From the NCBI GenBank assembly GCA_051294375.1, contig CM119269.1, positions 15,449,918-15,513,917 of the forward strand: a stretch of DNA of 64,000 nucleotides. The letters run 5' to 3'. Below, piece after piece: positions 7,877 through 35,585 of the stretch. Made by a program: the position numbers and the translations under genes. Source of the stretch: Paraspadella gotoi (lineage: Eukaryota > Animalia > Chaetognatha). Each line of letters begins with the position of its first letter. The first letter of the stretch is position 1. The notes under the pieces were generated by a model. The model was not told the origin of the DNA. It did no database searches and saw only the letters and a program-made list of their open reading frames with translations.

Positions 7877-9613
7877 TTACGCACTCGGATCTACGGATCC
7901 GTAAGAGGCTAAGGACGCTTTCTCGCTGATAGCAGAGTCTTCAACATACGCATTTTCTAGACTTTCCTTCCGGTATTCGGCGACGAGCTGCGCTAATTGT
8001 CGAGGTTTGGTAAGATTGAGTCCGTGCGGCGCCCCGGGGAGGATATCCACGCGTGCTGAGGACAGCAAAGAAGACGCGTGATTTGCGCCTGAAATGGTGT
8101 GTATACACTATTCTATAGATCAATATGTTCTAGTTAAATTTACAGAATATTAAGTTAAAAAAGATCATTGTGACAAACAGCTCGTTTCCTTTATCGAAAA
8201 TGAGTTTAAATTTAAAAAGAGCAAAAAATTTCGAGGGAAATAATCATTGAACCCAAGGGTGTCAGAAGATAATTTTATTAAATTCACCTGAAACATCAAT
8301 AATCAAATCTTCATCGCCCCAAATTATTTGGATTTTAAAGTCGAGCTCAGAAAGCTTTTTTATAATATCATCACTTCGAGAAGAATCTATGAGAAAAGCG
8401 CCGAAAACGCGACGAAGCCATTCCGTCTTATCCCGTCGAAGATGTAACAGACCTGAAAGATAAGAAATACATTTTTTCTGATTTTTTTAAAAGTTATCTT
8501 ACAAATCGGCAAACCTTTCATAAGGGGTCGTTTTTTTTTTAAACTCGTTTCGCTCTCGCCGGTGACTCTAGAAACCATAGTAGTTACCCCATCGACCGTT
8601 TCGGGAATGAGCCACTCCTCTCCTTGGCCGGCGCGAAACGCTTCCCAAAATGGACTGTACTTTGGGGTTTCCATGCCAGGACAGACCAGCGTAAGCAGTC
8701 TGACACGGTCCTCCGTGCCGTAACGAGCGGAGTAATCGGCGGCAACGGAGCCACCCAAAGAGTGACCGATGACGTGCAAGCCGGAAGGCAGGGCGTCGAG
8801 CCCGGCGGCGACCACAAAGGCGTGCACGTGGTCAGCGAAACCCGAGAGGGACGGGTCTTCGCCAGTCATCGGGCAGAGACCGTGGCCGGGAAAGTCGAGC
8901 GCCAAGGCGTGAACCGAGGAGGGAAGGAAACGAACGAAATCCGCCCACGTGTCGAGGGATTCCGCGAAACCGTGGAGGATGAGCAAGGTAGGGCTGATAA
9001 AGTTATGAGGGGAAAACTAAGAAAACTGAGCTGAGGTAATTAAAGGTCACGACTTACAATAATTTTCTTTTAAATTAAAAGGTATTTTGTTTAAAAAATA
9101 CATGGTTGTCTTTTGTTTACAAATATACGTACTAACTACGGGCATCGCGAATTTCTTTTTAAAAAAATTATTAACAAACAAACATGAGGCGGATTAAATA
9201 CTTATACTATAAATTATACTTTGCAAAATATTTCAGATTTTTTTTGCCAATTTGCGCTCTAATCTTTAATAAAAATTTTTACTATACGTACTATTTTTTA
9301 GTATATTAAATCTCTTAGTCTCTAGTCTTACTTGGCATTATCATTTGAAACATTTCCTTTTTCGGCGTAGGAAAACTTGGAGATGGTTTTTCGTTTAAAT
9401 TTGGCAATACGGAGCTGAGCACTAAAATCATTAAGAAATAAAAACAAACATTTTCATTTACGTATTACAGGGAGTAGAAAAAAAAACTTACCCTATTAAG
9501 AATGTAATAAATTTGTCAGGTGCGACAAAATATAAAATCAAAAAAGATAACAACGCTAATGTGAGGAAAAGTACAACGATTCCGACGCAAACGCCGATCA
9601 CTATGAGGCTCAT
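7877..9613 (-). CDS. ABHD6: Alpha/beta hydrolase, ABHD6-like monoacylglycerol lipase (5 exons)
   Basis: N-terminal TM helix (MSLIVIGVCVGIVVLFLTLALL), LILHGF oxyanion motif, ALDFPGHG, nucleophile GHSLG, IWGDED acid and APHG His. Exons join in frame across GT-AG introns. Confidence 0.75.
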
Positions 9614-10744
9614 CTTGGATTTGAGGTCGAAACTGTCAAAATAGGAATTTCTCTTGGTACGAGTCGAAAAACGGGTTTCTTGCGACTCGTGTCGCGTCAG
9701 ACTCGATACGAGGGTTGAATTAAAAAGCAATAAAGTCGGATAGAATGAGGGTAGCTTAAAACAGTTCTAATTCAAAACAAAATAACAAAATATTGTATAC
9801 CATGTTAGTTTTGGAAGTAATAACAAAAACTTATGTAACCAATATACTAAGAAATAAGAATTAAGAAAAGAACATCGCTCGAGGAAAGCAAAAGCCTGAA
9901 AACACGATCAAGATTCTTGACAAGAATTGGCGCCCCGATATTCAAACTAGTCTATATGAACGTGTCAAATTTTATAAATTCAAAATGTGATAGTAGGTAG
10001 ACTTCAGTGATTAAGTGGAAAATTGAAATAACCTCAAGAGTGTAACTTTGAAATAACAAACAAGATATGTTAAGCAATAAAGGGCAGTGAAAAAAGAAAA
10101 ACAAATTCGAAGGACGGTGCGATGTCATGACAGTGGCTTGAGACTAAGTCGACGAAGAAACCGACAAAATGTTAAATAAATTTCAAATTGTAATTTACAT
10201 AAATTAAAACCAGTTTTCGAAAAATTAAACGAAGAAACAAATGAATTTAAAAAAAAACGACTATGTTGAAGATTTTACGAAATAAATGTTTCGACTATTA
10301 CACTACTAATGTACTACTAATGTACTTCACTGAATTAGCTTTACGACCGTTAATTCTATTACTTTTCATATTTATTTACTATTGTGGCCAGAACTCTATA
10401 TAAAATATTTCTTATAAATGTATTACCCAATCGTGTAAATTCAGCAGTCTTTCCCCTCCATTTTATTTAGTAAATAGTACAATTTACCGTTATTAATTCC
10501 ACACAGAATTGTCATATCTTTGGGTAAACCAAAATAATCATTCTTGAAAAAAATTGGTCCAACTATTACGGCGGAAACAAAAGATGACGCCTAAGCTGAT
10601 AAGCCTATTCTACTTATCTCCTACAACTGACGAGTGACTGCCAATAACGAGCATAAATAAATAAACAAAACCAGATTATTACAAACAATTCTAGTTAAAA
10701 ATAAAAATCGCAACAACAAGACGTACTAATTATAAGAGAATCAA

Positions 10745-12744
10745 CTATTTCTTGACGATTTGTACGACGTCTTCGTCCTCGCAAGCGTGTGCGAGACCCA
10801 CCCGCTGGGGGGAATATTTAGCAGACGTTCCCCAAACGAGGGCGTACTTGAATTGATCCACGAGCGTCCGATGAATCGAGTGACACACGTGCTCGATTGT
10901 CGATCCGTTTCTCATGATTAGGCCGTCCTTATAAAGGAAACGGGAAAAGTCATCATCCTTATAACGCGAAAATCACAAAGGCAAAAAAAAAAAAAAAAAA
11001 AAAATCCTCAAATGGGAACGTCTCACTTCAAAATCTGGGCGACATCCTCGTTTCTTGGTGTAGACCCGGACCAAAGCGAGAGAATCCCATATTCTTTCCA
11101 ACAAATAATCCAGATTTAATTTCATGTTCATCGACACGACGACGCTGCTCGGTTGGTGCGCTATTCTATCCACCTAAAATTTTTAAATTACATGTACTAA
11201 CATCTCATTTAAATATCATAATCGAAAATACCTCTTCGATTGAAATTTGGTCGATTTTGTTATAAACATAGAGACAAGGCACGTAGACGCAGTTTCCCAC
11301 AACAACGTCGATAAAGTCTTGAGCGGAGGCGTCCTCTCGAAACAGGACCTCTGCGTTGAAAATTTTGTATTCGTGGAGAATCAACTGGATCATTCTTTCG
11401 TTCACCTAAAGGATAATTTGTATGGTGCATTTATTATCGCGATGTTTACCGCTGACTGTTACCTTTTTTTTTCAAATAAAATATGCATAATTTATAAGAA
11501 TTAAGCAGAGGCAGCAGATAGAATTGAGATGTTAATAGAAACAGAATTATACAAACATTTTTGACCTTTCATTAAAATAAATCCAAAAAGGAATTATATG
11601 TAATTGGTTTACCTTTCATGTCATTAAAAGCAGTTTTTTGACATTTGACTTCTATCTTACCACAAGAAACAAACCTTATCACAAATTATAATTAAAATAA
11701 TTAATTGATATCTCCTTTGTCATCACAGTGTCATCATCTCCGTCTTTGCTTAATAAACGATAATTTGTCTTCACTTATTAATTGCTCTCGTTAATTGATT
11801 AAACGCCAACGATAGAAACTCATCTAACATAACATAAGTAAACAAATACCAGGAAATACCTGCGTCAACTGACACATGGAGGTAAAACCGACGCCTCCGG
11901 TTTTTTTCTGCTTGAAGTAGATATTGGGTTTCTTTTTATTAAGTCTGATTCCGACGCTTTCGAGTTCGTTTTCAATGATGGTCCGGTGAATGTGGGGCTT
12001 CGTCGCGTCCAGCATGATTATCACCAAGTCCGCTGTCCGAGCCACGGCGATGACTTGTCGACCTCGACCTTTTCCCTAATCAATTTTAATAGGACCCGTG
12101 AATATTACATATTTACAATCTAACAAAGATTTACAGTTTATAAGCTACTTCAGAATAATTTTACATGGATTTCAAATGTGAGTGTGTTACGGTTAAATGA
12201 AAAGATTTGTTATTGTCTTTTCATTTCACTCCGTTTTGAAATCCGTGGAGGTTTACATTTTTAAGCTTTTACCTGAGCAGCACCTTCGATGATTCCTGGC
12301 AAATCAAGAAGTTGAATGTTGGCGCCTTTGTACTCGATAACACCCGGGATGCATGTGAGGGTGGTGAATTCGTACGAAGCTTGTTCGCTCTCCGTCTTGG
12401 TAATTGTGCTAAGCATCGTGGACTTGCCGACCGATGGAAATCCGATCAAAGCAACCCTGATGCCGTGAAAGAGGGAAGAGGGAATTAAAAAAAATATGAC
12501 TCAGCAAAGGTCGGGAGTAGCTTTCTTCTCCGATCTTTAATTTCCGATCTCACCTGGCGTCTCCAGACTTCATGACGTCGAACCCTTCGCCCTTCTCGCC
12601 TTTCTTTCCAGAGGGTTCCATCATTTGCGCTCTGTATTTGGCCAGTTTGGCCTTCAACACTCCCAAGTGATACTCGGTGGCTTTGTTTTTTTGAGTCCGG
12701 GCGATCTCCGCCTGGATCTCGCTTATTTTCTCGAGTATTCCCAT
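10745..12744 (-). CDS. DRG2: Developmentally regulated GTP-binding protein 2 (multi-exon)
   Basis: [73 protein letters not shown] and a TGS C-terminus ending DVVQIVKK*. Confidence 0.95.
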
Positions 12745-13066
12745 TGTGGAGGCGGAAAAGTTACAGGGAGGGACGGAAGGAGTTCGGAGGCGGAGGCGGG
12801 GGAGACGCCGTTTCGCACTCCTACAAAGTACCGTCCGATAGGGAATGTAGTTTTAACTGTTCTGTAAAAAAGACCCGTGTATAATTAAAAACTGTGTGAG
12901 CAGTAAACAGTAGTAAAATTAAACAAATCATCGATTAGCACGAGGGGTAACGAAATTAACCACAGTATGACTTTAAACCCAGATTGCGACATAGAAAAGC
13001 ACATGCAACGCTCTACAAAAGGCTTAAGAGTTAATTCGAAACAAATCGCCAAAAAAGTCACTGCAA

Positions 13067-14174
13067 TCAGGTCATGGCGAAATCGTGAGCGGCGGCATAT
13101 CTGCCGGTCACGTGATGGAATATTTGTCGTTCAACGTCCGTCAAAAGCCCAGAGGCGCCGATTCTGAACAAGTTGGGCTTTGTCCACTCCGTCCCCAACT
13201 CTTCCTTCATTAAGAAAAGCCAAACCAGGGCGTCCTTAGCGGAGCGGATGCCGCCGGCGGGTTTGAATCCGATCTTTACACCCGTTCGCTCGCGAAACTC
13301 GCGAATGGCGCGACACATGACTACTCCAACTGGAAACACGGCGTTGACTCCCTCTTTTCCCGTGGAAGTTTTGATGAAGTCCGCGCCGGCCATCATGCAA
13401 ACGATCGATGCTCTGATCGAAAACCCCGTTTTATATATAGAGCGGTTCATTGCTTCTGACGTTAAAATACAAGGCAAAATTTCGCCAACCTGTAAACGTT
13501 GGTCAAGCTACCCAGTTCACCGGTAGCCAAGATGGTTTTCATGTGTGCTTCCCCACAAACTTCTCTCATTTGTTTGACCTCCTCGTAAACCGTCTCCCAG
13601 TCGCCCTTGAGAGCCGCCTCGCGGTTAATGACGATATCTATCTCCGTGGCGCCAGATTTGACGGCGTCGCGAATCTCGTTGAGGCGCGTGGAGAGGGAAT
13701 ACTGGCCGGAGGGAAATCCGGTGGCGACAGCGGCGACGGGAATGTGCGCGGCGCCGATTCGCGCAAGGACGCGCACGGCGTCAGGGACTCGAGCGGGATA
13801 CACGCAAACGGCACCGGTCGTTAATCCGATTTCGTCCATCTCCAAGTCCTCAAGCAAATCCACGCGGACGGGAGATTTGGCTGCACGGATCGAAGGATCC
13901 ACTTAAAACATCTTTCTTACGACAATTAATCCTATCAACGACCTTTAAAGCAGAGCCGTTCCACGTTCGTCCCAGTATCGTCTCCGGAGAGAGTCGTCAA
14001 ATCGATGCAAGAAACCGCGCGCAGCAACCAGGCAGCTTGCCACTGCTTCTTGACCGTACGCCTTTTGCCCAACGTTTCGGCGCGACGCTTCACCGCAGGA
14101 AGGTTGACTGAGACGCTGTTGACCCAGGCAAGGTCCAGCGCGAATCCCGGGTTTCGATCCATGTGCGAGGACAT
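13067..14174 (-). CDS. DERA: Deoxyribose-phosphate aldolase (3 exons)
   Basis: CIDLTTLSGDDT, AVCVYP, ATGFPSGQ, GATEIDIVINR, KTILATGEL, ADFIKTSTGK and GFKPAGGI. The ATG at 14174 (MSSHMDRNPG) is preceded by ACAG-AA. Confidence 0.95.
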
Positions 14175-14305
14175 TTCTGTTCTTGCAACAACGAGGTCAA
14201 CAAACGTAAAGTATAAACCGTACGAGAGTAAGGAGATAAAACACAAAGTTTAAAAACGGTCGAATAAAAACTTAGTCTTAACAAAAAAAAAAAAGAAAAA
14301 AGGAA

Positions 14306-14563
14306 TCAGCTGGTCGAGGCTTTTTTGTCATTTTCCTCTTTCTTCTTTTTCAATTTTTCAAGTTGTTCCTCCTGCATCTTGCGAAAAAATTTGGCTTCCT
14401 CCGCCGCTTGTTTCTTGGCGAAAGAGTCTCCGGCTGATTTGACTGTGCCGTCGGCGTCGCCAGCGCCAACGCCGCGAGGACCGTCGCTCATGAGGAGGGC
14501 GGAGACACGCATCGCTGGTGACATCAATCTTAGCCGGGAAACCTTCGTCGCGGCCACTGACAT
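14306..14563 (-). CDS. ATP5IF1: Mitochondrial ATP synthase inhibitory factor 1
   Basis: Single-exon 85 aa ORF with a basic presequence, then GAGDADGTVKSAGDSFAKKQAAEEAKFFRKMQEEQLEKLK, the IF1 pattern (AGG/D-F-K-E-A-E-YF) and coiled coil. Confidence 0.85.
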   Translation of the reverse strand: MSVAATKVSRLRLMSPAMRVSALLMSDGPRGVGAGDADGTVKSAGDSFAKKQAAEEAKFFRKMQEEQLEKLKKKKEENDKKASTS

Positions 14564-14786
14564 TTTATTTCTTCAACAATTAACTGCAAAAGGTAAACGC
14601 CGCGAGCGGAAAAAAAATCAATAAACGAGGGAAAATAGAACAGAACAGACATCGCCAGGTTTCAAAGCGATCGGATCGGTTGGATTTCTCGCGTGCGATA
14701 TGAGAAAAATGAAAGCGAAAGATCGTTGTAAAAATCCGACGGTGAAATTTGGCCACAATAAATCGAATTAAACAAAACCACTTTCG

Positions 14787-15419
14787 TCAGTTGAGTTCTA
14801 TGACGCCGCCAACGGCCTCGATGGCAGTTTTCAACGCCTCCGCCTCTTCCTTGTTCGCGCCCTCCTTCAAAATCTGCGGCGCGGCCTCCACGAACTTTTT
14901 CGCCTGCACCAGATTCATCCCCTCTAACAAGTTTTTAACTTCCTTGATCAGCGCCACTTTTTTTCCAACGTCGAAGCTGACGAGTTTTACGGCAAAGATC
15001 GTCTTTTCGCGAGGCTTGTCTTCGGCTTCCTCCTCGGCGGCGGGTGCGGGGGCAGCGGCAGCACCTGTAAGGAGAGGAAAGAATGAAAAATAGTACTGTG
15101 CGGAAAAAGACCTTATTTCTTTACAGCAAACGAAAAATAACTAACTTGAAGCCATCATGGGAACGTCCTTTATGTTCAACTTGATCTTCAAAAGTTCATT
15201 TAGATCTGCCACTTCTAAGATCGACATTTTGGCAATGTCATCGACCATTTGAACAATTTTGGGCGAGTAGGACTTAGTGGCGCCTTCGGGCGTGGGCGCA
15301 GGCAAAGGCTGAGTGGAGTAGAAAACTCCGCTGCTTCGAGCGACGGCGGCGGAAGCGTTTAAGGGCAACGATCTAGTGAAGTGGCCGCAGCGACAAAGGA
15401 GCCACGGAAGGCGCGACAT
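14787..15419 (-). CDS. MRPL12: Mitochondrial ribosomal protein bL12m (2 exons)
   Basis: YSPKIVQMVDDIAKMSILEVADLNELLK, an Ala/Pro hinge, then EKTIFAVKLVSFD...KVALIKEVKNLLEGMNLVQAKKFVEAAP...GGVIELN*. Confidence 0.92.
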
Positions 15420-15574
15420 TTTCTACCAGGACAAAATACAATCCCTTTGGTCCTTAATGGACTAGAAAAAATGAGAAAAAATCAAATGCTGGGAGTCAAT
15501 AAATGAACAGTGGACAACAAAAGGAAATATTCAATGGCGAGCAGAATGTAAAAAGCTTTAATCGAGAAACGATT

Positions 15575-16430
15575 TCACATCTCCCCGCATTGGGAGATGA
15601 CGACGGGAATCTTGGGTTTATTGTTTGGTCCCGTAGGAATGTTTTCGATCTTGCGAACGATGAGCAGCCCTTCCGTGACGCGGCCAAACACGACGTGTTT
15701 CCCGTCCAGATAATCACACTTGGAGCAAGTGATGAAAAATTGACATCCGTTAGTGTCTTTGCCGGAATTGGCCATCGACAAGAGGCCGGGACCCGAATGC
15801 TTCAATCGAAAGTTTTCGTCTGAAGTCGATATTAAAATTACAACTTATGTGGGGCGAGGATTCGTTTTTTAAAATTAGGACAGCCTTTTGAAGTTGTTTA
15901 ATAATTAAGTTTACTAAAATGATCGCTCAACAGATACAAACCTGCAAAGTTTGGACCGTATATGCTCATTGTCCCCGTTCCGTCCCCGTTGACAAAGTCC
16001 CCTCCCTGAATCATAAAATCCTTGATAACGCGATGGAACTGGGATCCTTTAAAACCCGTAGGCACGCCGTCACGCCGGAACTCGCCGGTACATAGTTGCC
16101 GAAAGTTTTCCGCGGACCTATGCCCGAGCCAAAAAGCTATGTAAACCATCAATTCGAACAAAAGCGTACGGAGAGTAAGGAGAGGATATCAACTAGCCGA
16201 CTCTAGGAAAAGCTGCGCGAGCAACCTCGATATTTTTCTGACTAAACTTTTTTTAACCTTTCCATAATTTTATATTATGCTGACTATGGTTTCCGCTTTT
16301 TTTCGCGGTGAATTCACCTCGGGACGACGTCAGCAAACAGTTCCATCTTCATCCTGCCAATTTCCGTATTCCCGACAGTGATGTCGAAAAAAACGACTGG
16401 ATTGTTCGGATTCGTAACCTTATCGGCCAT
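15575..16430 (-). CDS. PPIH: Peptidyl-prolyl isomerase H (cyclophilin H, U4/U6 snRNP), 3 exons
   Basis: [73 protein letters not shown] and the PPIH-type C-terminus [20 protein letters not shown]. Confidence 0.93.
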
Positions 16431-16907
16431 GTCTGTTTTTATGAGCGAAAAAGTCGCTCGGGAACTAACGATTGATTTGAAAGGAGACTATTTTGAAAAC
16501 AGCTTTGATAATGTCACGACATGATTACGATGGTCGATCCAAAGTTTTACAATATGTTGCTTATTAATATAAATAAATTAAGTAAAGAAGCTTCTTTCGT
16601 TTGAATTTGGGACATGGAGACAAGTTTCTATTTAAAAGTTTTTCTTTCTCAAAAGGGGTCTTCCGGTAAAAAGTAATAGTAAAGCCGAAAATTGCTCGGC
16701 TTTCGACTAAACATATGAGCAACAAAAACCACAATTTTTTAAAGAATTGTTCAAAAAATTCCTCAGGGAGGAACAAGCTGGTAAGGTTAAATTCATAAAA
16801 ACTAATCACCCTAATCTTGATAAAAATCTACGACGCCCCAAAAGGTGATGAATCGAGTGAGGATTGGACGAAGCAACCCCGAGCATCTCTGTCTTTGGCA
16901 ACCTTTT

Positions 16908-19900
16908 TTACTTCATCTTGGCTCGGAGAGAGGCGGGCATCTCCGGGGGCGGGGGACGGGGCAGGCGGAAAATGACCTTGACAGTGTCGTAAATAAACCA
17001 CTGTAGCGCTGTGAGCGTGCCGATCATAATTATCCTCGGGAAGAGACCAGCCCATAATCCGGCCATTCCCAGCTCCTTGGCCGCGCTAACGGCGGACCCG
17101 CCTGTAGTGAAAAACATATTATACTGAGCTCTCCAAATTTCAGAATAATTATTTCAAAGAGAGAATGGGTGAAGGGTTGTTACCAGGCATATTGTTTAGT
17201 TTCGAGACGACAGTGTCAGCAGGATGAGAGACTACGGCGCAGAAGACACCGGCGATGTATCCAGCGACGAAGGTGACTCCCAGCTGTTCAGCTTTGTTAC
17301 ACTGATCACGAGGCTTCGGTACCACGTATTTGTACAAATTTTCTGACAATTAAGCAATAAGAAAAATTTAACAATTCGTAGACAAATTTTGAAAAAAATC
17401 AATGTCAACTTACCGACTGTTTTTTCAAAGCAGGCGAACTTCATCATGGTGTAGGGAATCTGCCGCATCCACAGCGGAGTAAGTCCTTTATAGAAGCCCC
17501 ACAGGCCTTCCGTGTTGTACAGCAAGGGCACAGCCGCGCGGAAAGTTTTAGGGAAACCCTCCTTTGTTTGGATGCCTGAATGAGAAGTAAACTTAAGGCA
17601 ATATTAAAAAAAATTTCGAATGATTATTTTTTAGCTCTTCCTTCCGACGGGGCTCGGAAGGACGACTGACCGACTTTGATGGCTTCGAAGGGTGCGAGAC
17701 CGATGTCGGCGAAGAACTCGGCCGAGGCGGAGGCGATCAAATAGAGACCCGTACGGTAGAGATAAGCGGCTTCCTCTCCCAGCAATCCCGCGTAGACAAT
17801 CTTGAAGAGTTCATAGAAGCCGAATTTGCCGAGTCCCTGGACTGAGTAGCCCATCAACGTCGGAGCCCATCCCAGCGTAAGAGCAGAGAGTCCACCCTCG
17901 GCGACCGTCACTCTAAAAGCCAAATAATATGGAAATCCTCAAATAACTAAGGTTATTGCATCAATGTAATTTCTCAGTCATTTTTTTCCCTTCAACTCCA
18001 ACTATTCGATACTCTTTCCCAAATTATATAATAATATATATACTTATAAATACTCTCTGAATTCTATTTTCCTCTTCCTACACAATTGTCTCCTAATTAT
18101 TTATCCTCATCATTCTGTCATTCTATCCTTAATTTTTTAAGACGTTTTAAAGATATAAATATAGATATAAATTGCACTCGAGATTCCTTCATCTTCTCCC
18201 TTCCTGTTATTTTCTCCGCTGTCTCCAACTCTTCTTCCTCCTCCTCCTTCATTTTCGAATCCTAACTGGGTACCAGTGTTTCTAGGCAACCAGAAAAGCC
18301 AAGAACTAGTGGAAACAAACGGTGGTACAAAAATATCTTAAAAAAGCGGAATCAAAATGTCGGGTTTGCCCCGTGAAGTTCTCAGATGGCTTCAAAGCCT
18401 CGATCTTTCGTCTCCTGTAAAAAATCCGAAGTGGGACTTTTCAAACGGATTGCTCATAGCGGAAATATTTTCTTGGTATTTTCCGAGAGAAATCAGTATG
18501 CACAGTTTCCATACAGGATGTAGCCTTCAAACCAAAATGTCCAACTGGTACCTGCTGGATAAGTTCTTTCGCGATGAAAATATGGATATACCAAAAGACC
18601 TTATGCTCGGAACAATTCATAACAAGGGTTAATTTTTCGTTTTTGTATTATCAAAGATGACAAGGTACAAATTAATTAAATCTACTCCCCAATTACGTTC
18701 AGATGGGGCGGCGGCTCTTCTAATTCAGCACATCTTTGAACGATTGACAAGGCGCAATGTCTCCGCGTCTCTACTCCGGGAATCGACTTTCTCGGAACAC
18801 GCGCGGGATTTCACCTGCGCGGATCAAGCCTACCAAATGACGCTGCCGATGCACGCGCGAGCCACTGCATCCACGGCCGTGAAATCAAATTTTCAAATTA
18901 CCGAATCGATGGCACATCCAAATATCATCACCAATGCTCATCAGGCAAATAACTTTTAGTACGTTATACCCTAAAACATCTAATTACTCCTATATATTCT
19001 GTCACATTTCGCAGGCTCAAAAGATTATCAGCAACCATTTGGAGAACAGGCAACGAGAAAGATTAATTGACCCGCAAAGATTCGGAATAAGACCCACGGT
19101 GGGAGAATCCAGCCTCCGTTTAGCGGAAGCATCGATTCCACCGTCGAGAACGCGTTCAAACGCCCCCTCATCACCGCAACGTAGAGTGGAACTTCAAACT
19201 GAAGAACGACCACGTGAAATCCACGTGCGACAACACTTAAGTCTTCATTAATCGTGAAACAACCTTTGAAGATCGTGATGCCCAAATTAATAAATTGCTG
19301 CATATTATGTATTAAAATTACTAATTCGTTTTAAAACGTAAAGAAATACCGCCTAATTAATGTCGTCAAAAACTTTCGAATCCGTAAAGACTGTATATTA
19401 TGTATAATATACAATAAGGCGGAACAGGTTACAAACTAACAGAAGTCCGATATAAATATTGTTAATGTTTATTAAAGATCATTAAAAAAAAGAAGATTTA
19501 TCTTATAGTTGAACAGTTTAACAGATTCTTATCTAAAGCTTGAAAAGTTAGATGAAGCTTATTATTACAACTTTTTGAAATTTTAATGATTTATCTATGA
19601 AAATTAATAAAAACTATAAAATTTAATGAATGATGATGATGATAATAATTTTTTAAGTTTTTTTAGCATATTTATCATTAAAATTTTGAAATTTGTAGTA
19701 CTAACCTTTATCTAACTTTTTAATCTTTATCAGAATCCATTTTTAAAAATTTAAATTTTATGGTGGACTAAAATCCACCAATCAGAAGCTCAGGGACTGC
19801 TTGTATTGAACGGTTCTGTCACTAACACACAATCATTACTGTCAACTTCTAAAAAATATTTTTAAGCATATATTGTTATATATTAAAATGCTTCCATGCA

Positions 19901-20515
19901 TAAGGAAACGAATTTAATAAATCTAACATCATAAGTCAATTTGGTTGTAAAAGGACAAAAGACTTTTATTGCAGACTTTTTTATCTTGTAAAAATGTTAA
20001 ATTCTGGCCCGCCTTAATGTACAATTGTACATTACTGGTAAATAAACGTATCCAGAATTGAAAGCAAAATTTTATTGTAGTAACGTGCAGTGTAGTTAAG
20101 TAATATACTTTTTCATATCTCTTTTATTTCCCAAACCCAAACGTGGAGAATTGACTACTCACTTGAATCCGTTTACGATGCCTTTGTATTTGGCCGGATC
20201 GACCTGGATCCGGCATTTGACGAGATCGAGCGGCACGATGGCAGTGTGCGTGATGCCGCAAGACAAGATCCCTCCGAACCCGCAAAGGAGGTAGTACTTC
20301 ATCGATCCAATTTCACAGGATGGGGTATCATCGGCGGCTGAAAGAAAAACAAATGACAACCCGAAGTGAAAATGGTTGACCAACTAACGGAAATCGCTGT
20401 TTAAAAACTCACCCGCCGAAATCGTTCTCGTTTCGTCGTTGCTTTTGCATTTTGCGACGGTGAATGGAGACCCAAATGGGCTGTTCAACGCAATTTTTGC
20501 TAAATTCTCATACAT
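16908..20515 (-). CDS. SLC25A3: Mitochondrial phosphate carrier (multi-exon; long intron 17913-20162)
   Basis: [83 protein letters not shown] and [13 protein letters not shown]. Confidence 0.96.
18278..18290 (+). promoter_or_regulatory. RFX X-box-like motif upstream of the nested SPATA4-like gene
   Basis: GTTTCTAGGCAAC, 66 nt upstream of the ATG at 18357, resembles the X-box consensus GTNRCC(N0-3)RGYAAC. Confidence 0.6.
18357..19251 (+). CDS. SPATA4: SPATA4-like CH-domain (SPEF1/CH_2 family) protein nested antisense in the SLC25A3 intron (3 exons)
   Basis: [51 protein letters not shown], later [18 protein letters not shown]. Introns are ~18628-18702 (GT-AG) and 18945-19014 (GC-AG). Confidence 0.85.
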
Positions 20516-20947
20516 CTATGGAAAAAAAAATAGTAATATGAATATTATTCTTTCTTAGCTCTCAACAGGCTTCAACTTACCTTATTCTTCGGGGTGGGTT
20601 TTGGATGTTCAGCAGAGATTCTTAAACCTAAGATTTAATTACCTGAAGGGCAAAATAACCAAACAATTAAGTGAAATTTACTTTCGATAAAATCAAATTT
20701 ACAAAAATTCGCTGGTCAAGTGCGTATTTTTAACCAAACAGGACTCAAGAAATTTAGAAAGCCCTTCGAAAAAAATAACATTCCCTTCGCTTTGATTCGA
20801 AACTGGGATTTTTTTCCGATTTGAATTGAATGGGTTTATTTTTTTTCGTTTTGTCTTTCTCTAACTCGAGGGCGCATAGGCTGAAATCGGACAAGGAATC
20901 AAAGAAGAATCTCGTTCGCATTTCCTTGGACGACGCAGGCGAGAACA

Positions 20948-21527
<580 letters not shown>

Positions 21528-21665
21528 GATGATGATTTTTTTCTAAGGTTCGCACTGACCAGCAACTTGAAGTACTGAATCGTTTCTACCCTTACTAAAA
21601 AAAAATAATAAATTAGAAATTTATGGCGTAACAACAGAATAACGAATTAAAAAGAAAAGGAATCG

Positions 21666-24226
21666 TTAAAATTTTGGTAAGCACTCCAGCAATATGTCTC
21701 TCAGTTTTTCTCTCATCGTGTCTTGTCCCTCGCATATGATATGTGTCGATTCTTCCTCGATCGTGATAAGAGTGTCCGAATCGATTTCGACAATGGCTCC
21801 GCCTCCTGGACTCTCCTCCAGCTTGGGATTTTTAAAGCCCTGCTGCCTCAAAAGAGCGACAAAGGCCGTCAGATCGAGAGAGCCGTAAAATTGCTTCGAA
21901 GGTGGCCTCCTCGTTCTAGTCCTCGATTTCGTTTCTTCTTCTTCTTTAGCGCCGGTAGAAGACTTGCGTTTTCGACTAACACCGTCCGTCGACGAAGATG
22001 CGGATGTCGTCCCTCCAACCTCCACGGCCTCTAAATTGCCGACGGACAAATGATCGGCGGAATGTAACGTCGCTCGGTTGTCCTTGACAATCACTTGGCC
22101 AAAGACGGTGGCCGCCAAAACGCCCGCTTTTACTTCGACGGGGGCGAGCGCTCCCGCCAAATCGGGGTTCAGTTCGATCCTATCGAACGTCTTTTCCACG
22201 TCGACTTTGACGACCTGTCCCCGTCGGTAGGGAAGCGGGGCAAAGTCGCTGTTGACGCAGAGGTCGCTGCGGTGAGGGGGAAACTGTGGTGGGCGAGTAT
22301 ATTGGTCGGCGACGACGACGCGTTTTGGGCGAAGGTCGGGCACGAGTTTGTTGGCCTGAGCGAAGGAGAGCGAGGTGTCTATGGGAGTGAAATAGGCCTT
22401 AATAGCCAAGGGTTGGAACGGAGCCAACGCTTCCAGGTGAGGAAAGTCAGGCTCGGTGAAGATGATCGTGTTTCGAGAATCCTTGCCCCACAGGTGAAGG
22501 AAATGAACGGCGTCCCCGAATCGAAGCGATGGGTGTCCCGCGAAGACGACGCACGGGGTCTTCAGCTGACGCGAAAACTCTGGATCGTAGACGTCGGCGA
22601 AATGGCGAAGCCGCTCGAGGCGGACGAGGTCGCCGTGGACGAAAGGGAAGTCAGGAAGGTAGACGCGACTTTGTTTACCGTGAGACAACCATTCGGCAAA
22701 GATGTTTGAAAAACCTAAAGGGGCAGAGACAAGCGGTGAATATAACAAGAAGAAGAGTGAGCTAGAAAATTAAAGTAAAAACGCTTTCTGACCGAGGCTT
22801 TGTTTGGCGACGGGCGAGATGAAGTAAAGCGGAACGTGCGCCAATTGCGAAGATTCTAAATGCGTCGAAAGGCATTCGAACAGATCGTAAGTGACCCCAG
22901 AGGGAAAACAAGGAACCAGAACGTTCCCGCCATTGCGTAAAGTGATGGCCGTATTAACGCAAAATTCGCCTGAGTTAAACAAGCGCGGGTTAAAATTAAT
23001 TTTATAGATATCGAAATATAATTAACATATATCCATCACGTATTTAACTTTTAACCATTATAGTTTAACAAAAAATGTAGTAAAATAAGTAATCTTGCAA
23101 TTATCATTAATCACCAATCATGGCGTCGGGATTTTGCGTAGGCCACTGCGTTAGACCAGACAAGATGAGAGCGTCGCCGTCTCTTAAGGCGTTTTGGTCC
23201 ATAGGACGTGGGTGCGTCGTTAAGGTCGATGATGACGATAGATAAACTATTTTTTCCCGAGAACCAGTTAGAACCCAATTGCATGATCCTGCCATAAAGA
23301 TAAAACTGCATATTACAGGCAAATCACAGATAAACTCCGACTTACCAAGACAAAATCCCGAGGAAGTTGGCATAACCGTAAGAGTTCCAAAGATGTCCCT
23401 CTTTTCCGAGTAACCGATTAGTTTAACTTTGGCGAGGGACGATTCCATCTCGTGGCGCGAATAAAGCAGCGACCAACTGGAAAGATTTCCCCCGACGGCT
23501 TCGCGCAATCCGGCCGGGAGTGATTTGGTGAATTGAGGGTCTTTCCACTGGGTCGTTGTGGATTCGCTGGGACAACGATCGATCCAATGGATCATTTCCT
23601 CCATGAACAACCTCCCCATGGTCAAAGTTGGTTCCGTCATAAAAATTTCGCCTTAAAAAGTAAAGCTCAAGGATTGATGAGACGAACAATGTCAAGTCAA
23701 AAATCCCCGTTACTTTTCAAATTTGAAGCGCCGCACCTTTAAAATTTGTACGTTCGGTAATGAATGGAAGCGCCAGCATATGATGATAATTTGAGATGAG
23801 GATCGCGTCAATTTCTCCCAAGTCGATCATCGCCATTTCCGGTTTCGAAAATTCCGGCGGAGAATCGATAAAGTAACGACCATTCAATTCCTGTTGAAAG
23901 CGTACGTATCATCAACGATAACAACAACAACGATCAACAGCTTACGCGCAACGATTATTATTATAGTAATAATTTATTCGTAATCCATGACGAAAAAGAG
24001 ATGTCCTCACCTTAATGCACTTAGAAGCGTCGTGTGGAAACAATCGCTCGTCCTTGGCTGCGAATGAGGGGAGTTTAACGAACTTTTTGAGTGGAGTCGT
24101 CGAGAGGGGGAGGAAATGGAGGACTGAGTTCATTTCGAGTCCCGCGTCGAGCATCAGCATAGTAGATTTAAAGCGGACCACGAGACACGGGCGGTTCGGG
24201 TGACCAGAGAGGCAATAAACGCGCAT
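21666..24226 (-). CDS. INTS9: Integrator complex subunit 9 (multi-exon)
   Basis: [79 protein letters not shown] and [13 protein letters not shown]. Confidence 0.95.
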
Positions 24227-24489
24227 TGTTAACACTCACTGATGCTCTTTTTCTATTCAAATGAATACCGTTGAAATTACTACCATGTAACCATGTAACA
24301 AAAAGCTAAAATGAGAGCACCATAACATCAGAGGAATAAGTTAAGGCGAAACATTATTTTGGAAATATTGTAATAAATTATAACAAAACAACAAGATTTA
24401 AACAAATGAGAAAAGAGACAGTCAAGACGAATTTGGGTCATTTTTTCTTCTTTTTCGGAGGGTATCCGCTGTAACATCCCATTGAGACT

Positions 24490-26001
24490 TTAAAAGTCTA
24501 ACGATTTCTCCGAAGGGTTTTTTGGTTGACCAGGCTCATTATCACAGGAGCAACTCTTTCCGCTACTGCAACCACCACTAGAGTTTTTTAAGGCGCCTTC
24601 TAACGATTTAGCTGACAGACTGTAGGTCTTTCGAGTTTTGTTGTTGGTGCCCACGGCGAGTTTGGGGAGACCCTTGTTAAGGCCTTCAAGGAGAACGCAA
24701 GCTTTACAAAGTTCTTGGCTGCTAATGTATCCGCAACGCGAGCATGTTCCCTAAAAATTACACAAAAACATTGTTTTTAATTTCTAGTTGAAATTCGGGT
24801 CAGAGAAAAAAAAATTTTCTCCTTAATCATTACGACAAGTTATTGTTGATATTGTTGTGCATGGAGCATTAAAATACTGCTCAACGTCCAAGATAGACAA
24901 AATATTAACACGGACCTGAACCGGCATCTTGGTTCCTTCCCTAACGTCAAGAGTTTCTCCTGCATGTATGATGTCGATGATGACTCGAGGCCGAATCGAC
25001 TCCAAGTCTTTGAGAAAAGCGCGAGCGTGGCCGCGATAGGCGTTTGGACTGTAGATGCACTCCGTCGAAAAGTAGTCCAACTTTTTGAAATAGGCGTACA
25101 TCACGATCTCTTTCTCGTAGGTGTACTTGAACGGTTTACAACGCGGAAGCGCACCTGCCGTCGAATTATTATAATATATTAAAATCCCAACAAAACTCGA
25201 ACGGATTAAAGTTTTTTTCCCTCCCCGTTTAAAAAAAAAGACCTTCGGAACCGGTGACGATGGAGGTGCAACGACGAAGTCTAGCGATGTCCCCGCGAAG
25301 GACGTTCATTAAAACAGTTTCAGCAATGTCGTCTGCATTGTGGCCGGTTACTATTTTGTTAGCTCCAACCTGGGAGTAAGGAGCAGTTTAACATTCGATT
25401 TATTATTATTTATTTATTATTAATTTGTACGTGAAAACTTAAAAGTGAAAGGATCGTACCAACAAGGCTCCTCGATCAAGCGCCTGCCGCCTGAAAACCC
25501 CGCAAAATGTGCAGTTATTCTTCCGGCCGATTTGTTCCACGATAGCGTCCATGCTCCATCCGTACAATTCGTTGTACGATACGATCTTGAGCGGGAGTTG
25601 ATACTGCTGCTGATTCCGTTTCACAGTTTCCAAAGAGTCGTCTCGGTAACCTTGGATGCCCTCGTCCACGGACAATAGGAAGAGCGACAATCCGTAGTCG
25701 TATCGTTCGTTGAGCACTTTCATGACATGGGCGAGGACGGTCGAGTCTTTACCCCCTGAAGCTCCTATGGCCACTCGATCGCCACTATTTAAATTATGGA
25801 GTTTTAACACATAAAACCATACATAATAGAAATACCAAATCACTGAAAAACCTACCGGTTGAATAATTTAGCCGTTACAATGGTATCATTGACTTCCGCT
25901 TCAAAACAGTAGAAGAAACAATCTTTGCACAACGCGTCTCCAGTTTTTGGTCTCTTCAAAATTGCATTTTGTCCGCATTTACGTCCGCAAGGAACCGGCA
26001 T
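24490..26001 (-). CDS. CTU1: Cytoplasmic tRNA 2-thiolation protein 1 (5 exons)
   Basis: N-terminal CxxC/RPKTG/CKDCF, PP-loop [52 protein letters not shown] and C-terminal [16 protein letters not shown]. Confidence 0.96.
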
Positions 26002-26076
26002 TTTCGCGTTTAAAGAAACTAGAGATAAATACAGTAAGAAAATTTAGTAGTAACAAAATCGCTTGACTGCTAATAA

Positions 26077-27531
26077 TCACAATCGCGCTGAAGTTTTCAA
26101 AAGAGTTTCGAAACTGGGAGTGGCGATTATTTTATGGCTCAAGCGTCCGTAAGTATACATGTCCCCTCCTCCGCTGACGTCGTCCAGTTTGACGCCGACG
26201 AATTCTTGCAGAAATCCAGCGGGAGTGCCCAGGCTAAGATCCAACGAGTGTCCGTTGGGAAAAACCAACTCGCATCGTCCACTGGCGCGGATCACGACTT
26301 TCCCGATTTGTCCCTTGGGCAACCTCCCGAGCTTACAGGCGTTGGGGTCGTCGCGGGTCGCGAAATCGATCTCGTCTTCGCCGTCATCAGCTCGAAGCTC
26401 CGAAACCACTTCTTCGTCGGTTTTGACGGCAGCAGCTGGAACCGCCGCAGCGGCGGAAGCATCCGGGCGAATATCAAAAGGCAAAGAGTCCGGGAGCTGA
26501 ATAAAAATAGAGCGGGGATCGGCGTTGACTTCATCAAAGACGCCAGCGCAGGAAAACGGACGTTTTCGATCGTCTGACGCCGTTGAAGCGGCGTGGGCGT
26601 GAGTTCGAGAGTCTAAGAGTGGAAGGGTTACGGGCGGAATAGCCGACTCTAGCTCCGCTTTTATGCCAGTTACAAAGTCATCCTTGAAGAGGCGATCTAA
26701 AAGCGCCTGAGCTTTGGCCGGATCCGTGGTCGTGGCTGTTAAAGATCAGAAATTGATGTTGATGATTAAATTAATTCATTTCTTTCTTTGAGTGGTATTA
26801 ACCTTTGGATGAGAAAACTCTGGCCGAGTCAGCAGCGTCACCACCGCCGCCGCCGCCATAAGAGGGTGCTCGCCCATCGCTTTTCCTTAGGTCACTCGTT
26901 AATCCCTTTGAAAAAACAGACGTTTTTGACTTAACATCTTAAATAGAGGTAAAAACAATTTTTAAAAATCTAATAAAATCACATGGATTAAGATAACATC
27001 CTAAAACTGCATGACTATTTCTTACTTCCAACACAGAACTAGTTTGAATGTGATTCGGGTTGACATATCCGGGACCGCCGCGACCTCGGCCTCTACCACG
27101 GCCCCTTCCACGCCCACGATCCGTTCTTGGCTCGAACCTCTTCTTTGGCTTCGCATCTTCAACCGAGGACGAAGTAGCTTCTTTTCTTAAAAAGGTTAAT
27201 CACATCTTCGTTTTAGAAACGTCGATGATAGTCATGACATTTGAAGTTTAAAAGTTTGAAACTTTTAGAACCGAGTCCGAGGGATTTAATTTTCATTTAC
27301 TGACCTTAACTTGGCCTGTAGATTAGGGGTGAAGACCTTCTTGGCTACTGACGGAGATGGTCCCGGAGATGGGTTCGCGGCGGAACCGTTGGAAGAGATT
27401 ACTGCGCCAGTTTCGCTCAAACTTATTTTGACATCCGGTCCACCGGACAATCGCTTTAATCGCGACACGGGATTTGTTATCCCTTCTTTTGGTTTGAGAA
27501 TCGGAGTTGAAACACGTCGATTATTCGACAT
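26077..27531 (-). CDS. POLR3D: RNA polymerase III subunit RPC4 (4 exons)
   Basis: KKVFTPNL, an RGRGRG stretch, FIQLPDSLP and the RPC4 domain GQIGKVVIRASGRCELVF...LDLSLGTPAGFLQE...GRLSHKIIATPSFETLL*. Confidence 0.85.
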
Positions 27532-27664: not shown

Positions 27665-27738
27665 TAGCCAAGACAATTTTACATCATTTTTAACATTCTT
27701 TTGAAAAAAATATTACAGCATCAGCGGCAAGTGATATT

Positions 27739-28032
27739 AAAAAAGTACGTCGAATCACGGGACTTAGTTGACCCGTTCGCACGTTGGTCCTTCCCGGCGT
27801 CTACTGGGTGACTTTGGCCGAAACTTCGCAGATTTTCCGCAACGCGGCAGCATCAGTCATTCCTCGCTTGCCCGCTGCCGAACAAGAGACAGGCCGCCGC
27901 AGCAGCGACGGATTATCGGCGCAGCTGCCGAGTGAACCGCCAATGGCTGACCTGCGGCGGCGGAGCGGCGACTGAAGCAGCGACGTTTCTCCGCTTCAGA
28001 GCGAGAGCACCTGTCTGCACCTGGCGCCTGAC
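27739..28032 (-). ncRNA. Candidate ~290-nt structured RNA at the head of the gene cluster
   Basis: GC-rich island with nested helices AGACAGG/CCTGTCT, GCCGCCGCAG/CTGCGGCGGC, CTGAAGCGG/CTGCTTCAG, CGGCAGC/GCTGCCG and TTGCGGA/TCTGCGA. A 3' terminal hairpin is followed by T6 on the minus strand. There is no credible ORF. Confidence 0.5.
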
Positions 28033-28430
28033 GAAGAAAACAAATATCTTATTCGGGCTCCGAAGAGAAAGCACGTAGGGAGGAAGTCTATATTTCCTCT
28101 CTCTCATGGTCGAAGTCATTGAGTATCGCGAGACTGAAAGCAACAATTATATAAATAAATTGATTCGTATCTTCGTTAAAGATTGCTAATGAACTTTATT
28201 TATACAAGATTAACAACGACAAGAATGTACTCGTACAACAAAAAGTAACTTATAAACATATTACCTATGTATATTATTAATAATTTTCGTTTAGTGCTAG
28301 GATTTAATATATAGAATTAGTTTTGTTAAAAAAAATAATTGTCAAATTTTTAATTTTTCTAGTTCTACTATATTTTAAAATGTCATATTGTGATTATGAA
28401 AAAAATTGAAACTCAAATAATGCAGAAAAT

Positions 28431-30067
28431 ATGAACTACAACTCCTCGGGTTATTTTAATGGGTTTTCCGACGTGGAATACGTCAACAACTACTACGGAG
28501 AATACAACAGTAACGGAAACTATGAGGTGAAATATTTTCGGAAATTATTTTTTGAATAGAAACTTTCAGATTAGTTACGTACCGCTTGATTATACAGACA
28601 AGCATTAAGCAAGACTTAATTTTTTATGCTTCATCAATCGGCCTGCAAAGATTTGTTTTCTTTACACGTACGATGTGACGAGACGAACTTATTTCAGGAG
28701 ATCGATTTGGAAAACGAGGAAACTTCGAATATGGTGATGGAGGTGGAGGAAGGGCTGGACGTCGAGGAGGAGGCCTGTTACAATTCATGGTAAATTCAAT
28801 TACTATAATTGATTTTTACCCCATATTTTTCTAAATAAATGATTAATTGCTAAAAAATTGAAAAAAAAGGTAAAAAATGGAATATTTTAAACCAAAACGT
28901 TATTTGACTGAAGGGCCCACCCGCCGCATCTAAACGAAGGACGAGATGCTGAAAACGCGAACGATTGGCCGAGCGAAGAAGTCAGGGACTACGGATACCG
29001 AGGATTCTCCAACTGGACGGGGGATATCGGTTTTTACGGTTGGTTGTCTACTTCGAGTGGTTTTCATTTCACTTTTCTTTTCTTTATCCTTCTTTCCTGA
29101 ACCTTCATCTTGTAATTCATACTAACTCTTACGGCCTACCCTTTTGCGTTCTTGACAGGTGGTAGAGCTCCCGAAGGCCGCCCATATGCCGACTTCGAAG
29201 AAGGGGCGTCCCCGTCAAGTGTCTTCGGCAACGCCATCCCTAGGGGTGGTCGTGGAAAACGACGCAGAGCTCGAAATGTCAGCGACGAACAACGCCATCC
29301 TTGTCGGGTTTGCGGGAAGATGCTCAGCACTAAGTGGTTAGTAGATTTCGCGAAATTTTAATTTCGGTTTTCTTATTCTCATCAATTCAACACTCGCATT
29401 GATTTTTTATCAATTTAGTTTATATTTGGTTGGAAAGTTATTTAATTATGTATCATACTTGTGAAGTTAAGTGATCACTTTAAAAAGTAATGACATAACT
29501 TAAAATTTAATGAAGCATAATTCGTGAAATATTTATTGAGTTATTTTAATCAATATTTGCCTGACTAGTAAGTTATCTGTGATTGATTGTGGTGCAATAT
29601 GCATATGTTTTATACTTGTATAGTCACATAACCCTGCAGAATTACGATCACTTTGACCACAGAGTAAATAAGGCGTATTTTGTGTGATATTTAGTCGGTA
29701 GTTGAAACTTTGCAGATAAATTATCAACCATTTGTTACACGTATATTTCATACTTAATAATATACATAATTCATAGTTATATTATTGCTTGGAAATATAT
29801 GTAGAAAGAAAGTTACTGCGGCGAAACACATTGGATGGACCATTATTGTTTAAAAAAAAAACTGATCTATTTCTCATTATTTTCATCTCGGTCAGGTACG
29901 CGAGAGAGCATGAACGAAGCGTCCACGGGACTGGCGATAGCTACCAGTGCAACATTTGCGGTGAGCGACTCAAGCTCGCCATCTATGCCGTGAAGCACGT
30001 GCAAAAAGAACATCCTGCCTGCACTGAAAAGCCCTTCGGCCAGTATTACAAAGTAATAATTGATTAG
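28431..30067 (+). CDS. C2H2 zinc-finger protein (two fingers, acidic N-terminus), divergent from the cluster
   Basis: Spliced exons give HPCRVCGKMLSTKWYAREHERSVH and YQCNICGERLKLAIYAVKHVQKEH. Upstream exons at 28431-28526, 28698-28789 and 28914-29038 join in frame. The 5' structure is less certain. Confidence 0.7.
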
Positions 30068-30271
30068 TAAATGACAAATAAATTAGGTGAAAATTATAAA
30101 AATTCCTTCCACTCGTCTTTTGTCATTTATTTCTTTTTCTTTTCTTTCTCTGCCTGTTTCCTTTTTTTCTTTCTTATTTTCCTTATTTCTTTCTTTCTTT
30201 CCTTATTAAATTCTTTCTTTCCTTTCTTTTTTTCTTTATGTCTCTTTTCTTTTTTTTGTATTTGTTCTTGT

Positions 30272-30307
<36 letters not shown>

Positions 30308-30964
30308 TCCTATTTTCCTCTTCTCTACTAAAGTGCAACCGATATCGAAATGTCAGTAAGACTCCTTCAGTTTTCTTGTATGCCATCTTTTTCACTGGTT
30401 TTTGCTTCCTCCATGCATTCTTGTTAATTGTTTATTAATTTCTCTTTCTCAGTTTCTGTCATTCAGGCCTTTCTTACTAACAGAATTATGTAATCATTGA
30501 ATTTGAATTTTACTTAGTTTATGTCTTTTCAACAGCATAAATTATTTTTAACCATTCAGAATTCGCTCATTCTAATTGTCTTATCTTTAGTTGGTTTCCG
30601 ACCCAATTGATAGCGTATTTACATGCAACTACTGTGGGACGGAAACTATGCAAATGTGTGAGATACAAAGGCATCTCAAGGATGTACATCATGTCGAAAA
30701 AAGGTACTTACTATGTAGTATACTGTATATCCATTTTATTCAGGGACATAGACATTAGAAAATGAAAAGAGAAGGAAAGAAAGAACGAGGGAAAGAAAGA
30801 AAGAAAGAAAAAATGAAAGAAAAAAAGAAAGAAAGAAAGAAAGAAAGAAAGAAGAAAGAAAGAAAGCAAAAAATAAGGAAAGAAAGATGAAAAAAGTTCC
30901 AACCAGCGAGCATTTTAATCAGAGGAATCCAAGGAAAGGTAGGCCAAATTGAAAGAGCGCGCGC

Positions 30965-31034
<70 letters not shown>

Positions 31035-31057
31035 CTGCACTAGATTCAGGTTTTCGG

Positions 31058-34472: not shown

Positions 34473-34638
<166 letters not shown>

Positions 34639-34955
34639 TTTATTAGTAGAAAAAAAGGACACATTGAGTGATACGAAACAGCAAGAATAAAAATTTCGAA
34701 ACCCGCATTTTTTATTTTTGAATCTACACTCCCTGGTCAAACCCTTAAGTTTGAAGAAAACTAACGTCATTCATAAGAAATAAGTTTTGATTTTTGAACG
34801 TCGAAGCCAAAGGTAACAACATTAAGTGATTAACAACGAATCATCTGCTATTTTCTCTCTATCTTTCATCTTTCTTTCTTTCTTTCTTTCTTTTTTTTTT
34901 CTTTCTTTCTTTCTATCTATCTATCTTTCTTTATTTCTTTCTTTTTTCCTTTCTT

Positions 34956-34996
<41 letters not shown>

Positions 34997-35054
34997 CTCT
35001 CTCTCTCTTCTTTTTCTCTCTTTTATTCTCTAGCCCTATCAACTCCCTCCAGCC

Positions 35055-35492: not shown

Positions 35493-35585
<93 letters not shown>

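What the first reader, a model, noticed from the sequence alone, without database searches (positions are those of the whole stretch)
10745..27531. Ten-gene candidate eukaryotic operon resolved by spliced-leader trans-splicing
Seen: POLR3D, CTU1, INTS9, ATP5MC, SLC25A3, PPIH, MRPL12, ATP5IF1, DERA and DRG2 all lie on the minus strand. Stop-to-ATG gaps are 75, 263, 138, 432, 477, 155, 223, 131 and 322 nt. The shortest leave little room for a 3'UTR, terminator and promoter. Known: nematodes, tunicates, flatworms and chaetognaths process such clusters as polycistronic pre-mRNA by SL trans-splicing, usually with only a few genes. Inferred: this is an unusually long operon, possibly 11 genes if ABHD6 (1131 nt further on) is included, in an animal that keeps SPATA4 and RASL12.
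Basis: partly seen in the sequence, partly recalled or inferred. Interest (0 to 1): 0.9.

Follow-up and report, generated by a model that had tools for sequence, protein, structure and literature searches.

The report
Likely ten-gene animal operon, leader unproven
Ten unrelated housekeeping genes of an unidentified animal, possibly an arrow worm, sit head to tail only 75-477 bases apart and assembled RNA runs across two of the gaps, so they are likely read as one or a few long RNAs that leader splicing would cut into separate messages, a known arrangement, although no leader was found.

Summary
In detail: ten intact minus-strand genes with stop-to-ATG gaps of exactly 75-477 nt; ABHD6 follows 1131 nt on. 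An antisense SPATA4-like gene sits inside SLC25A3 intron 2. Contigs of one public run (X1), laid on the lower half only, skip 12 of the 14 predicted introns, yet single intron-free contigs cross the MRPL12-ATP5IF1 and DERA-DRG2 gaps. That fits partly processed polycistronic RNA, but also read-through or overlapping UTRs. No spliced leader was seen. The one non-genomic 5' end (MRPL12) is 28S rRNA, a library chimera. Contigs can drop leader tips, so SL use remains untested. Acceptor-like sites upstream of the ATGs beat other non-coding and antisense windows, but not shuffles of themselves. The host is unidentified; a chaetognath fits best, and chaetognath operons are published (18% of genes, longest nine). 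Verdict: probably an SL-resolved operon arrangement (0.6), a single ten-gene unit about 0.3; a new member of a known kind.

The parts
27700..28100 (.). GC- and CpG-rich block between POLR3D and a divergent + strand gene; candidate head promoter (inferred)
   Evidence: GC 0.45-0.66 against 0.16-0.35 on either side; five ORFs of the block without Pfam hit; no Rfam hit
26077..27531 (-). POLR3D (RPC4), 4 exons, 382 aa; first gene of the run
   Evidence: PF05132
24490..26001 (-). CTU1, 5 exons, 365 aa; 75 nt after POLR3D; pyrimidine-rich AG ends 17 nt before the ATG (26019)
   Evidence: PF01171
21666..24226 (-). INTS9, 6 exons, 691 aa; gap 263 nt
   Evidence: PF21382; named homologues
20948..21527 (-). 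ATP5MC, 3 exons, 148 aa; gap 138 nt; strong acceptor-like AG at 21595
   Evidence: PF00137
16908..20515 (-). SLC25A3-like mitochondrial carrier, 6 coding exons, 344 aa; gap 432 nt; AG directly before the ATG probably pairs with a donor at 20580 (5' UTR intron), further AG at 20643
18357..19251 (+). SPATA4/SPEF1-like gene nested antisense in SLC25A3 intron 2; predicted 3 exons, 248 aa
   Evidence: PF06294 CH_2; model
15575..16430 (-). PPIH, 3 exons, 177 aa; gap 477 nt
   Evidence: both introns skipped in X1
14787..15419 (-). MRPL12, 2 exons, 183 aa; gap 155 nt; pyrimidine-rich AG at 15462
   Evidence: PF00542; intron skipped in X1
14564..14786 (-). MRPL12-ATP5IF1 gap, crossed by one intron-free contig
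   Evidence: X1 record 4, piece 14309-15062
14306..14563 (-). ATP5IF1, 1 exon, 85 aa; gap 223 nt; strong acceptor-like AG at 14584, upstream ATG at -89
   Evidence: PF04568
13067..14174 (-). DERA, 3 exons, 322 aa; gap 131 nt
   Evidence: PF01791; named homologues; both introns skipped
12745..13066 (-). DERA-DRG2 gap, crossed by one intron-free contig
   Evidence: X1 record 3, piece 12629-13412
10745..12744 (-). DRG2, 6 exons, 364 aa; gap 322 nt
   Evidence: all five introns skipped
9614..10744 (-). DRG2-ABHD6 gap, covered end to end by two contigs that meet at a T run (10249-10252); no single record bridges it
   Evidence: X1 records 1 and 2
7877..9613 (-). ABHD6-like hydrolase, 5 exons, 355 aa; possible eleventh member; acceptor-like AG at 9633

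Best explanation
These genes likely form a polycistronic transcription unit, or two to three abutting ones, whose precursor would be cut into single-gene mRNAs by 3'-end formation plus spliced-leader trans-splicing at acceptor sites just upstream of each start codon. Shown: the gene models, spacing and orientation; removal of cis introns; RNA-derived contigs that keep the spacer between MRPL12 and ATP5IF1 and between DERA and DRG2. Inferred: a head promoter in the GC-rich block at 27.7-28.1 kb; that the spacer-containing RNA is a cis-spliced, not yet trans-spliced intermediate; that the T-rich AG sites are trans-splice acceptors; that the host is a chaetognath or another SL-using animal. The nested SPATA4-like gene would be transcribed on its own from the other strand. 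That all ten genes hang on one promoter is about half as likely (0.3) as the general arrangement.
For: Nine gaps of 75-477 nt, ten genes on one strand, while the genes outside the cluster are kilobases apart (by eye). X1 contigs skip 12 of 14 predicted introns at canonical ends, including ones of 338 and 454 nt, so the cover is spliced RNA, yet two single records cross whole gaps; intron-free dicistronic intermediates are described for a Brugia operon (PMC1657053, passage). The contig leading into ABHD6 carries 639 nt with four upstream ATGs before an acceptor-like AG 19 nt from the start, awkward for a mature 5' UTR. Best AG within 130 nt of the 11 ATGs scores 6.65 on a model from 32 cis acceptors, against 5.07 in 17 3'UTR/intergenic windows (p 0.004) and 3.64 antisense (p 0.003). 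AATAAA at a plausible place in 1 of 9 internal gaps against 4 of 5 terminal or isolated genes (p 0.02; post hoc, unequal lengths). Gene classes (RNA metabolism, mitochondrial, translation) match those reported for nematode and chaetognath operons. Host clues fit a chaetognath: no named relative for INTS9 or DERA, unnamed environmental relatives at 78-84%, INTS9 rejects a place beside the two insects sampled (AU p 0.00015), CpG observed/expected 1.12-1.38 in all ten coding regions, in line with the lack of gene-body methylation reported for Paraspadella gotoi.
Against: No spliced leader in the 6 loose-end rows shown for X1 (19 rows over the four runs were not shown), and no extra contig depth in the bins holding the ATP5IF1, DRG2 and ABHD6 acceptors. 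The one candidate leader is rRNA. Counting the AATAAA next to the ATP5IF1 start makes the poly(A) contrast 2 of 9 (p 0.06). A contig across two genes is not a single molecule, and all RNA evidence is one run of one study. INTS9 does not reject a place with arthropods as a whole (AU p 0.25) and DERA leans towards arthropods (SH-aLRT 94, quick tree), so the host is not established.
Confidence: 0.6

Rival explanations
1. A tightly packed block of separately promoted housekeeping genes: each promoter lies in the last exon or 3' UTR of the gene before, and UTR overlap or leaky termination links the RNA cover.
For: No leader seen; acceptor scores do not exceed own-composition shuffles; gaps of 263-477 nt can hold a short UTR and a core promoter; de Bruijn contigs join overlapping transcripts; a nested antisense gene shows that promoters can work inside the block.
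Against: Gaps of 75-155 nt at four junctions; no GC-rich block like the one at the head in any gap (gap GC 0.28-0.43); strict co-orientation of ten, where separately promoted neighbours are often head to head (general knowledge); loose spacing elsewhere in the window.
Confidence: 0.25
2. Stable di- or polycistronic mRNAs without trans-splicing, translated by leaky scanning or re-initiation.
For: Unbroken intron-free contigs across two gaps; polycistronic mRNAs are reported for green algae (PMC7896298, search listing only).
Against: Upstream cistrons are long and gaps hold upstream ATGs; the full-length unnamed DERA relatives lie on contigs of about 1.1-1.5 kb, single-gene size (their gene order and RNA origin are unknown); contigs cannot give molecule lengths.
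Confidence: 0.07
3. Cis-splicing of one shared leader exon from the head region onto alternative acceptors, as in an adenovirus late unit.
For: Strong donor-like sites at 27951 and 27642 upstream of POLR3D (scores 9.6 and 10.1); acceptor-like AGs before the ATGs.
Confidence: 0.04

Closest known systems
Chaetognath operons resolved by SL trans-splicing (Paraspadella gotoi, PMC12460157; Spadella cephaloptera RPS14-PCNA, PMC2481426)
   Same: Co-oriented housekeeping genes at short spacing; operons there hold 18% of genes, are defined by less than 250 bp between genes, and favour metabolism over development. Host clues fit this phylum.
   Different: Longest reported operon has nine genes, of ribosomal, ubiquitin and proteasome type, not these; here ten or eleven with a nested antisense gene. 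No chaetognath-type leader was seen here. The paper's gene table (xlsx) could not be read, so this cluster may already be listed there.
Nematode operons (C. elegans SL2 type; Brugia malayi OP1032), PMC1657053
   Same: Two to eight genes, enriched for mitochondrial ribosomal and RNA-processing genes; intron-free dicistronic intermediates found by RT-PCR.
   Different: About 100 bp from poly(A) signal to acceptor in C. elegans; most gaps here lack AATAAA; host proteins are not nematode-like by their best hits.
Tunicate operons (Ciona intestinalis, Oikopleura dioica), PMC7986045 section 25
   Same: Little or no intercistronic DNA once UTRs are counted; one leader serves operonic and other genes.
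   Different: Mostly dicistronic, up to seven genes in Ciona; no tunicate is among the named best 120 hits of INTS9 or DERA. The Oikopleura maximum was not found in the passages read.

Membership tests
SL-resolved eukaryotic operon | Two or more co-oriented genes at very short spacing | tested here: met
   Ten genes, stop-to-ATG gaps 75-477 nt
SL-resolved eukaryotic operon | One precursor RNA spans successive genes | tested here: inconclusive
SL-resolved eukaryotic operon | A shared non-genomic leader on the downstream mRNAs | tested here: inconclusive
   None in 6 shown X1 rows; the one candidate is LSU rRNA; only simplified contigs were available
SL-resolved eukaryotic operon | Unpaired 3' splice acceptor before each downstream start | tested here: inconclusive
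   Above other non-coding and antisense windows (p 0.004, 0.003), not above own shuffles (86 of 500)
SL-resolved eukaryotic operon | One promoter at the head, none inside | not testable with these tools
   No CAGE or chromatin data; GC/CpG block at 27.7-28.1 kb is only a candidate
SL-resolved eukaryotic operon | An SL RNA gene (leader, donor, Sm site) elsewhere in the genome | not testable with these tools
   No genome held; none in the window by Rfam or by a chaetognath-type pattern
Chaetognath operon (host assignment) | Host is a chaetognath | tested here: inconclusive
   No named relative; unnamed clade of 8 for DERA, one unnamed relative at 79% for INTS9; no chaetognath sequence was available to place in either tree
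Chaetognath operon (host assignment) | No gene-body methylation | tested here: inconclusive
   Proxy only: CpG observed/expected 1.12-1.38 in ten of ten coding regions; shared with other unmethylated lineages

The most novel reading that the evidence does not exclude
POLR3D to ABHD6 is one eleven-gene, 20-kb polycistronic unit from a single head promoter, transcribed straight through an independently expressed antisense SPATA4-like gene, longer than the maxima stated for C. elegans (8), Ciona (7) and the chaetognath P. gotoi (9), and possibly in an animal lineage in which operons have not been described.
Probability: 0.2. Interest if true: 0.65.

Novelty: new member of a known kind. Interest (0 to 1): 0.4.

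Why it matters
If the host is a chaetognath, this is a long example of a published arrangement and a good test locus for how such operons end each message without AATAAA and tolerate a nested antisense gene. If the host belongs to a lineage without known trans-splicing, it would add an independent origin of animal operons. The case also shows a trap: a leader-like contig end at the right place was ribosomal RNA.

Tried and rejected
Candidate leader at MRPL12: 30 loose letters at 15437, absent from the window (0 matches). An 18-letter part gave 113 metagenome loci, 50 of which continue with the same flanks so that 29 of the 30 letters match; 8 of 8 such loci tested are eukaryotic LSU rRNA. A 7-letter match to the genomic flank suggests a template switch. 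Rejected as SL. No RNA holder was listed on record as RNA; this blank is no evidence. Runs X2-X4 hold only short or foreign pieces (two predicted joints at depth 2 in X2) and were not used as support. Parts without cover, not used as evidence: 15438-15473 between the PPIH and MRPL12 contigs (inferred from bin depth; it contains the AG at 15462), the T-rich repeat between ATP5IF1 and DERA, and 17029-17300. The SLC25A3-PPIH junction could not be resolved from the rows shown. Three joints without canonical ends (11261-12040, 12075-12418, 12805-16230) were read as a paralogue's contig or chance. Residual depth of 4401 letter-units in bin 14019-14319, near the DERA start, is unexplained. Xenoturbella as host: GC and intron size fit (PMC11521371, passages) but several unnamed environmental DERA relatives and the CpG-rich coding regions fit less well; not excluded; no paper held all of 'spliced leader', 'operons', 'trans-splicing', 'Xenoturbella'. 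ATP5IF1 found no exact record and no homologue. Rfam found nothing in the window. Earlier notes on this genome or look-alike stretches: none. The six gene names searched were absent from the three readable supplements of PMC12460157; its gene table was unreadable.
Full report
Observation. I read the whole window and built the ten gene models by coordinates. Pfam supports 9 of 10 identities from single exons; DRG2 and PPIH were checked further. One addition matters: the SPATA4-like gene lies on the opposite strand inside SLC25A3 intron 2. Above the cluster the window holds only three distinct genes by eye in 36 kb, so the packing is local. A GC/CpG-rich block at 27.7-28.1 kb, without Pfam or Rfam hit, separates POLR3D from a divergent gene and is the natural candidate for a head promoter (inference).

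RNA. One search listed six runs, none on record as RNA; X1 held 0.66 of the words. Four runs were laid on 8300-17300 only, so POLR3D to most of SLC25A3 has no RNA test. X1 contigs skip 12 of the 14 predicted introns in that stretch at canonical ends (one more joint row was not shown; bin depth implies it is ABHD6 intron 1), so X1 is spliced RNA of the same species, with a few differing letters. Record 4 runs from MRPL12 through the 223-nt gap into ATP5IF1; record 3 runs from 91 nt upstream of DERA through the 322-nt gap into DRG2 exon 1. Records 2 and 1 cover the DRG2-ABHD6 gap end to end but meet at a T run with 4 letters of overlap, which is not a bridge. The other three gaps are unresolved. 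The listed pieces, plus a PPIH contig whose ends I inferred from depth, explain most bins closely, including those holding the ATP5IF1, DRG2 and ABHD6 acceptor-like sites. A contig across two genes shows continuous 31-letter words, not a molecule: precursor, read-through and overlapping UTRs all give it.

The leader that was not one. The MRPL12 contig begins with 30 letters not in the window. They do not resemble the chaetognath leaders of PMC2481426 Table 3 (section read). In metagenome contigs 50 of 113 loci with an 18-letter part continue so that 29 of 30 letters match, and 8 of 8 tested are eukaryotic LSU rRNA. It is a chimera. No other leader-like end appears in the 6 X1 rows shown; 19 rows over all runs were hidden. 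This absence is weak: Logan contigs are simplified graphs of 31-mers (10.1101/2024.07.30.605881, passages), and from my knowledge of such assemblers a short leader branch is clipped where a genomic path competes.

Sequence signals. A model from 32 cis acceptors scores the best AG within 130 nt of the 11 ATGs at 6.65 on average, as high as true acceptors (leave-one-out median 5.6), above 17 3'UTR/intergenic windows (5.07, p 0.004), 9 intron windows (3.93, p 0.0005) and the antisense strand (3.64, p 0.003), but not above shuffles of the same windows (86 of 500). A first model with one wrong ABHD6 boundary and an exonic position gave the same pattern (p 0.001; 114 of 500). So the regions before the starts are T-rich like acceptors, which promoters or UTRs could be too. 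AATAAA lies at a plausible place in 1 of 9 internal gaps and in 4 of 5 terminal or isolated genes (p 0.02, or 0.06 counting a second one beside the ATP5IF1 start); this comparison was post hoc and the windows differ in length.

Host. No genome was held. INTS9 has one unnamed relative (79% over 685 residues) and then named animals at 40-48% over the exon searched; the pair sits on a long unsupported branch (46 of 120 hits used). In a 19-row tree it is rejected as sister to two insects (p 0.00015) but not as part of arthropods (p 0.25). DERA forms a clade of 8 with unnamed ENA, JGI, Logan and 'merc' proteins, 78-84% identical for the six measured, leaning towards arthropods in a quick tree (44 of 120 hits used); that 'merc' is a marine eukaryote catalogue is recalled. 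No tunicate, cnidarian, ctenophore or nematode is among the named best hits. Coding regions show no CpG loss. By elimination a chaetognath fits best (my estimate about 0.55), but no chaetognath sequence could be placed beside it.

Mechanism and comparison. The most likely working is the known one: a long precursor, cis-spliced early, with each message released by 3'-end formation and addition of a capped leader at the next acceptor. Brugia OP1032 gives intron-free dicistronic intermediates like the pattern seen here (PMC1657053, passages). In P. gotoi nearly half of the genes are trans-spliced, 18% lie in operons and the longest has nine genes (PMC12460157, passages and section 5); C. elegans has two to eight, Ciona up to seven. 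I give 0.6 to an SL-resolved operon arrangement, about 0.3 to all ten genes on one promoter, and 0.25 to separately promoted genes. Membership is not established, since no defining RNA feature was met outright. Earlier notes of this scan list several smaller clusters of the same look in other genomes (unchecked), which lowers the surprise.

Verdict. Observation confirmed; interpretation partly supported; new member of a known kind; interest 0.4.

Noticed in passing
window 30057-38463 and 39347-47625: Direct duplication at 96-97% identity beside N gaps; in a 2.9-kb part the second copy has 54 deletions, 10 insertions and 2 mismatches. Looks like an assembly artefact from unpolished long reads, not a real gene duplication.
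   Followed up: partly
window 18357-19251 (+): SPATA4/SPEF1-like gene nested antisense in the 2250-nt intron 2 of SLC25A3, with AATAAA 38 nt after its stop.
   Followed up: partly
window 15437, run X1: mRNA-28S rRNA chimera at a 7-letter microhomology mimics a spliced leader.
   Followed up: yes
window 27772-28122 (+): One reading frame of about 115 codons broken by a single TGA runs through the GC-rich head block; no Pfam hit. Could be a remnant or chance.
   Followed up: partly
window 28420-32617 (+): Divergent multi-exon gene with zinc-finger-like stretches by eye, head to head with POLR3D; last exon without Pfam hit.
   Followed up: no
window 35035-37764 (+): Divergent kindlin/FERMT-like gene by eye (name recalled; first exon had no Pfam hit).
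   Followed up: no
   Followed up: no
coding regions 10745-27531: CpG observed/expected 1.12-1.38 in all ten housekeeping genes and 1.35 over the window: no sign of gene-body methylation.
   Followed up: partly
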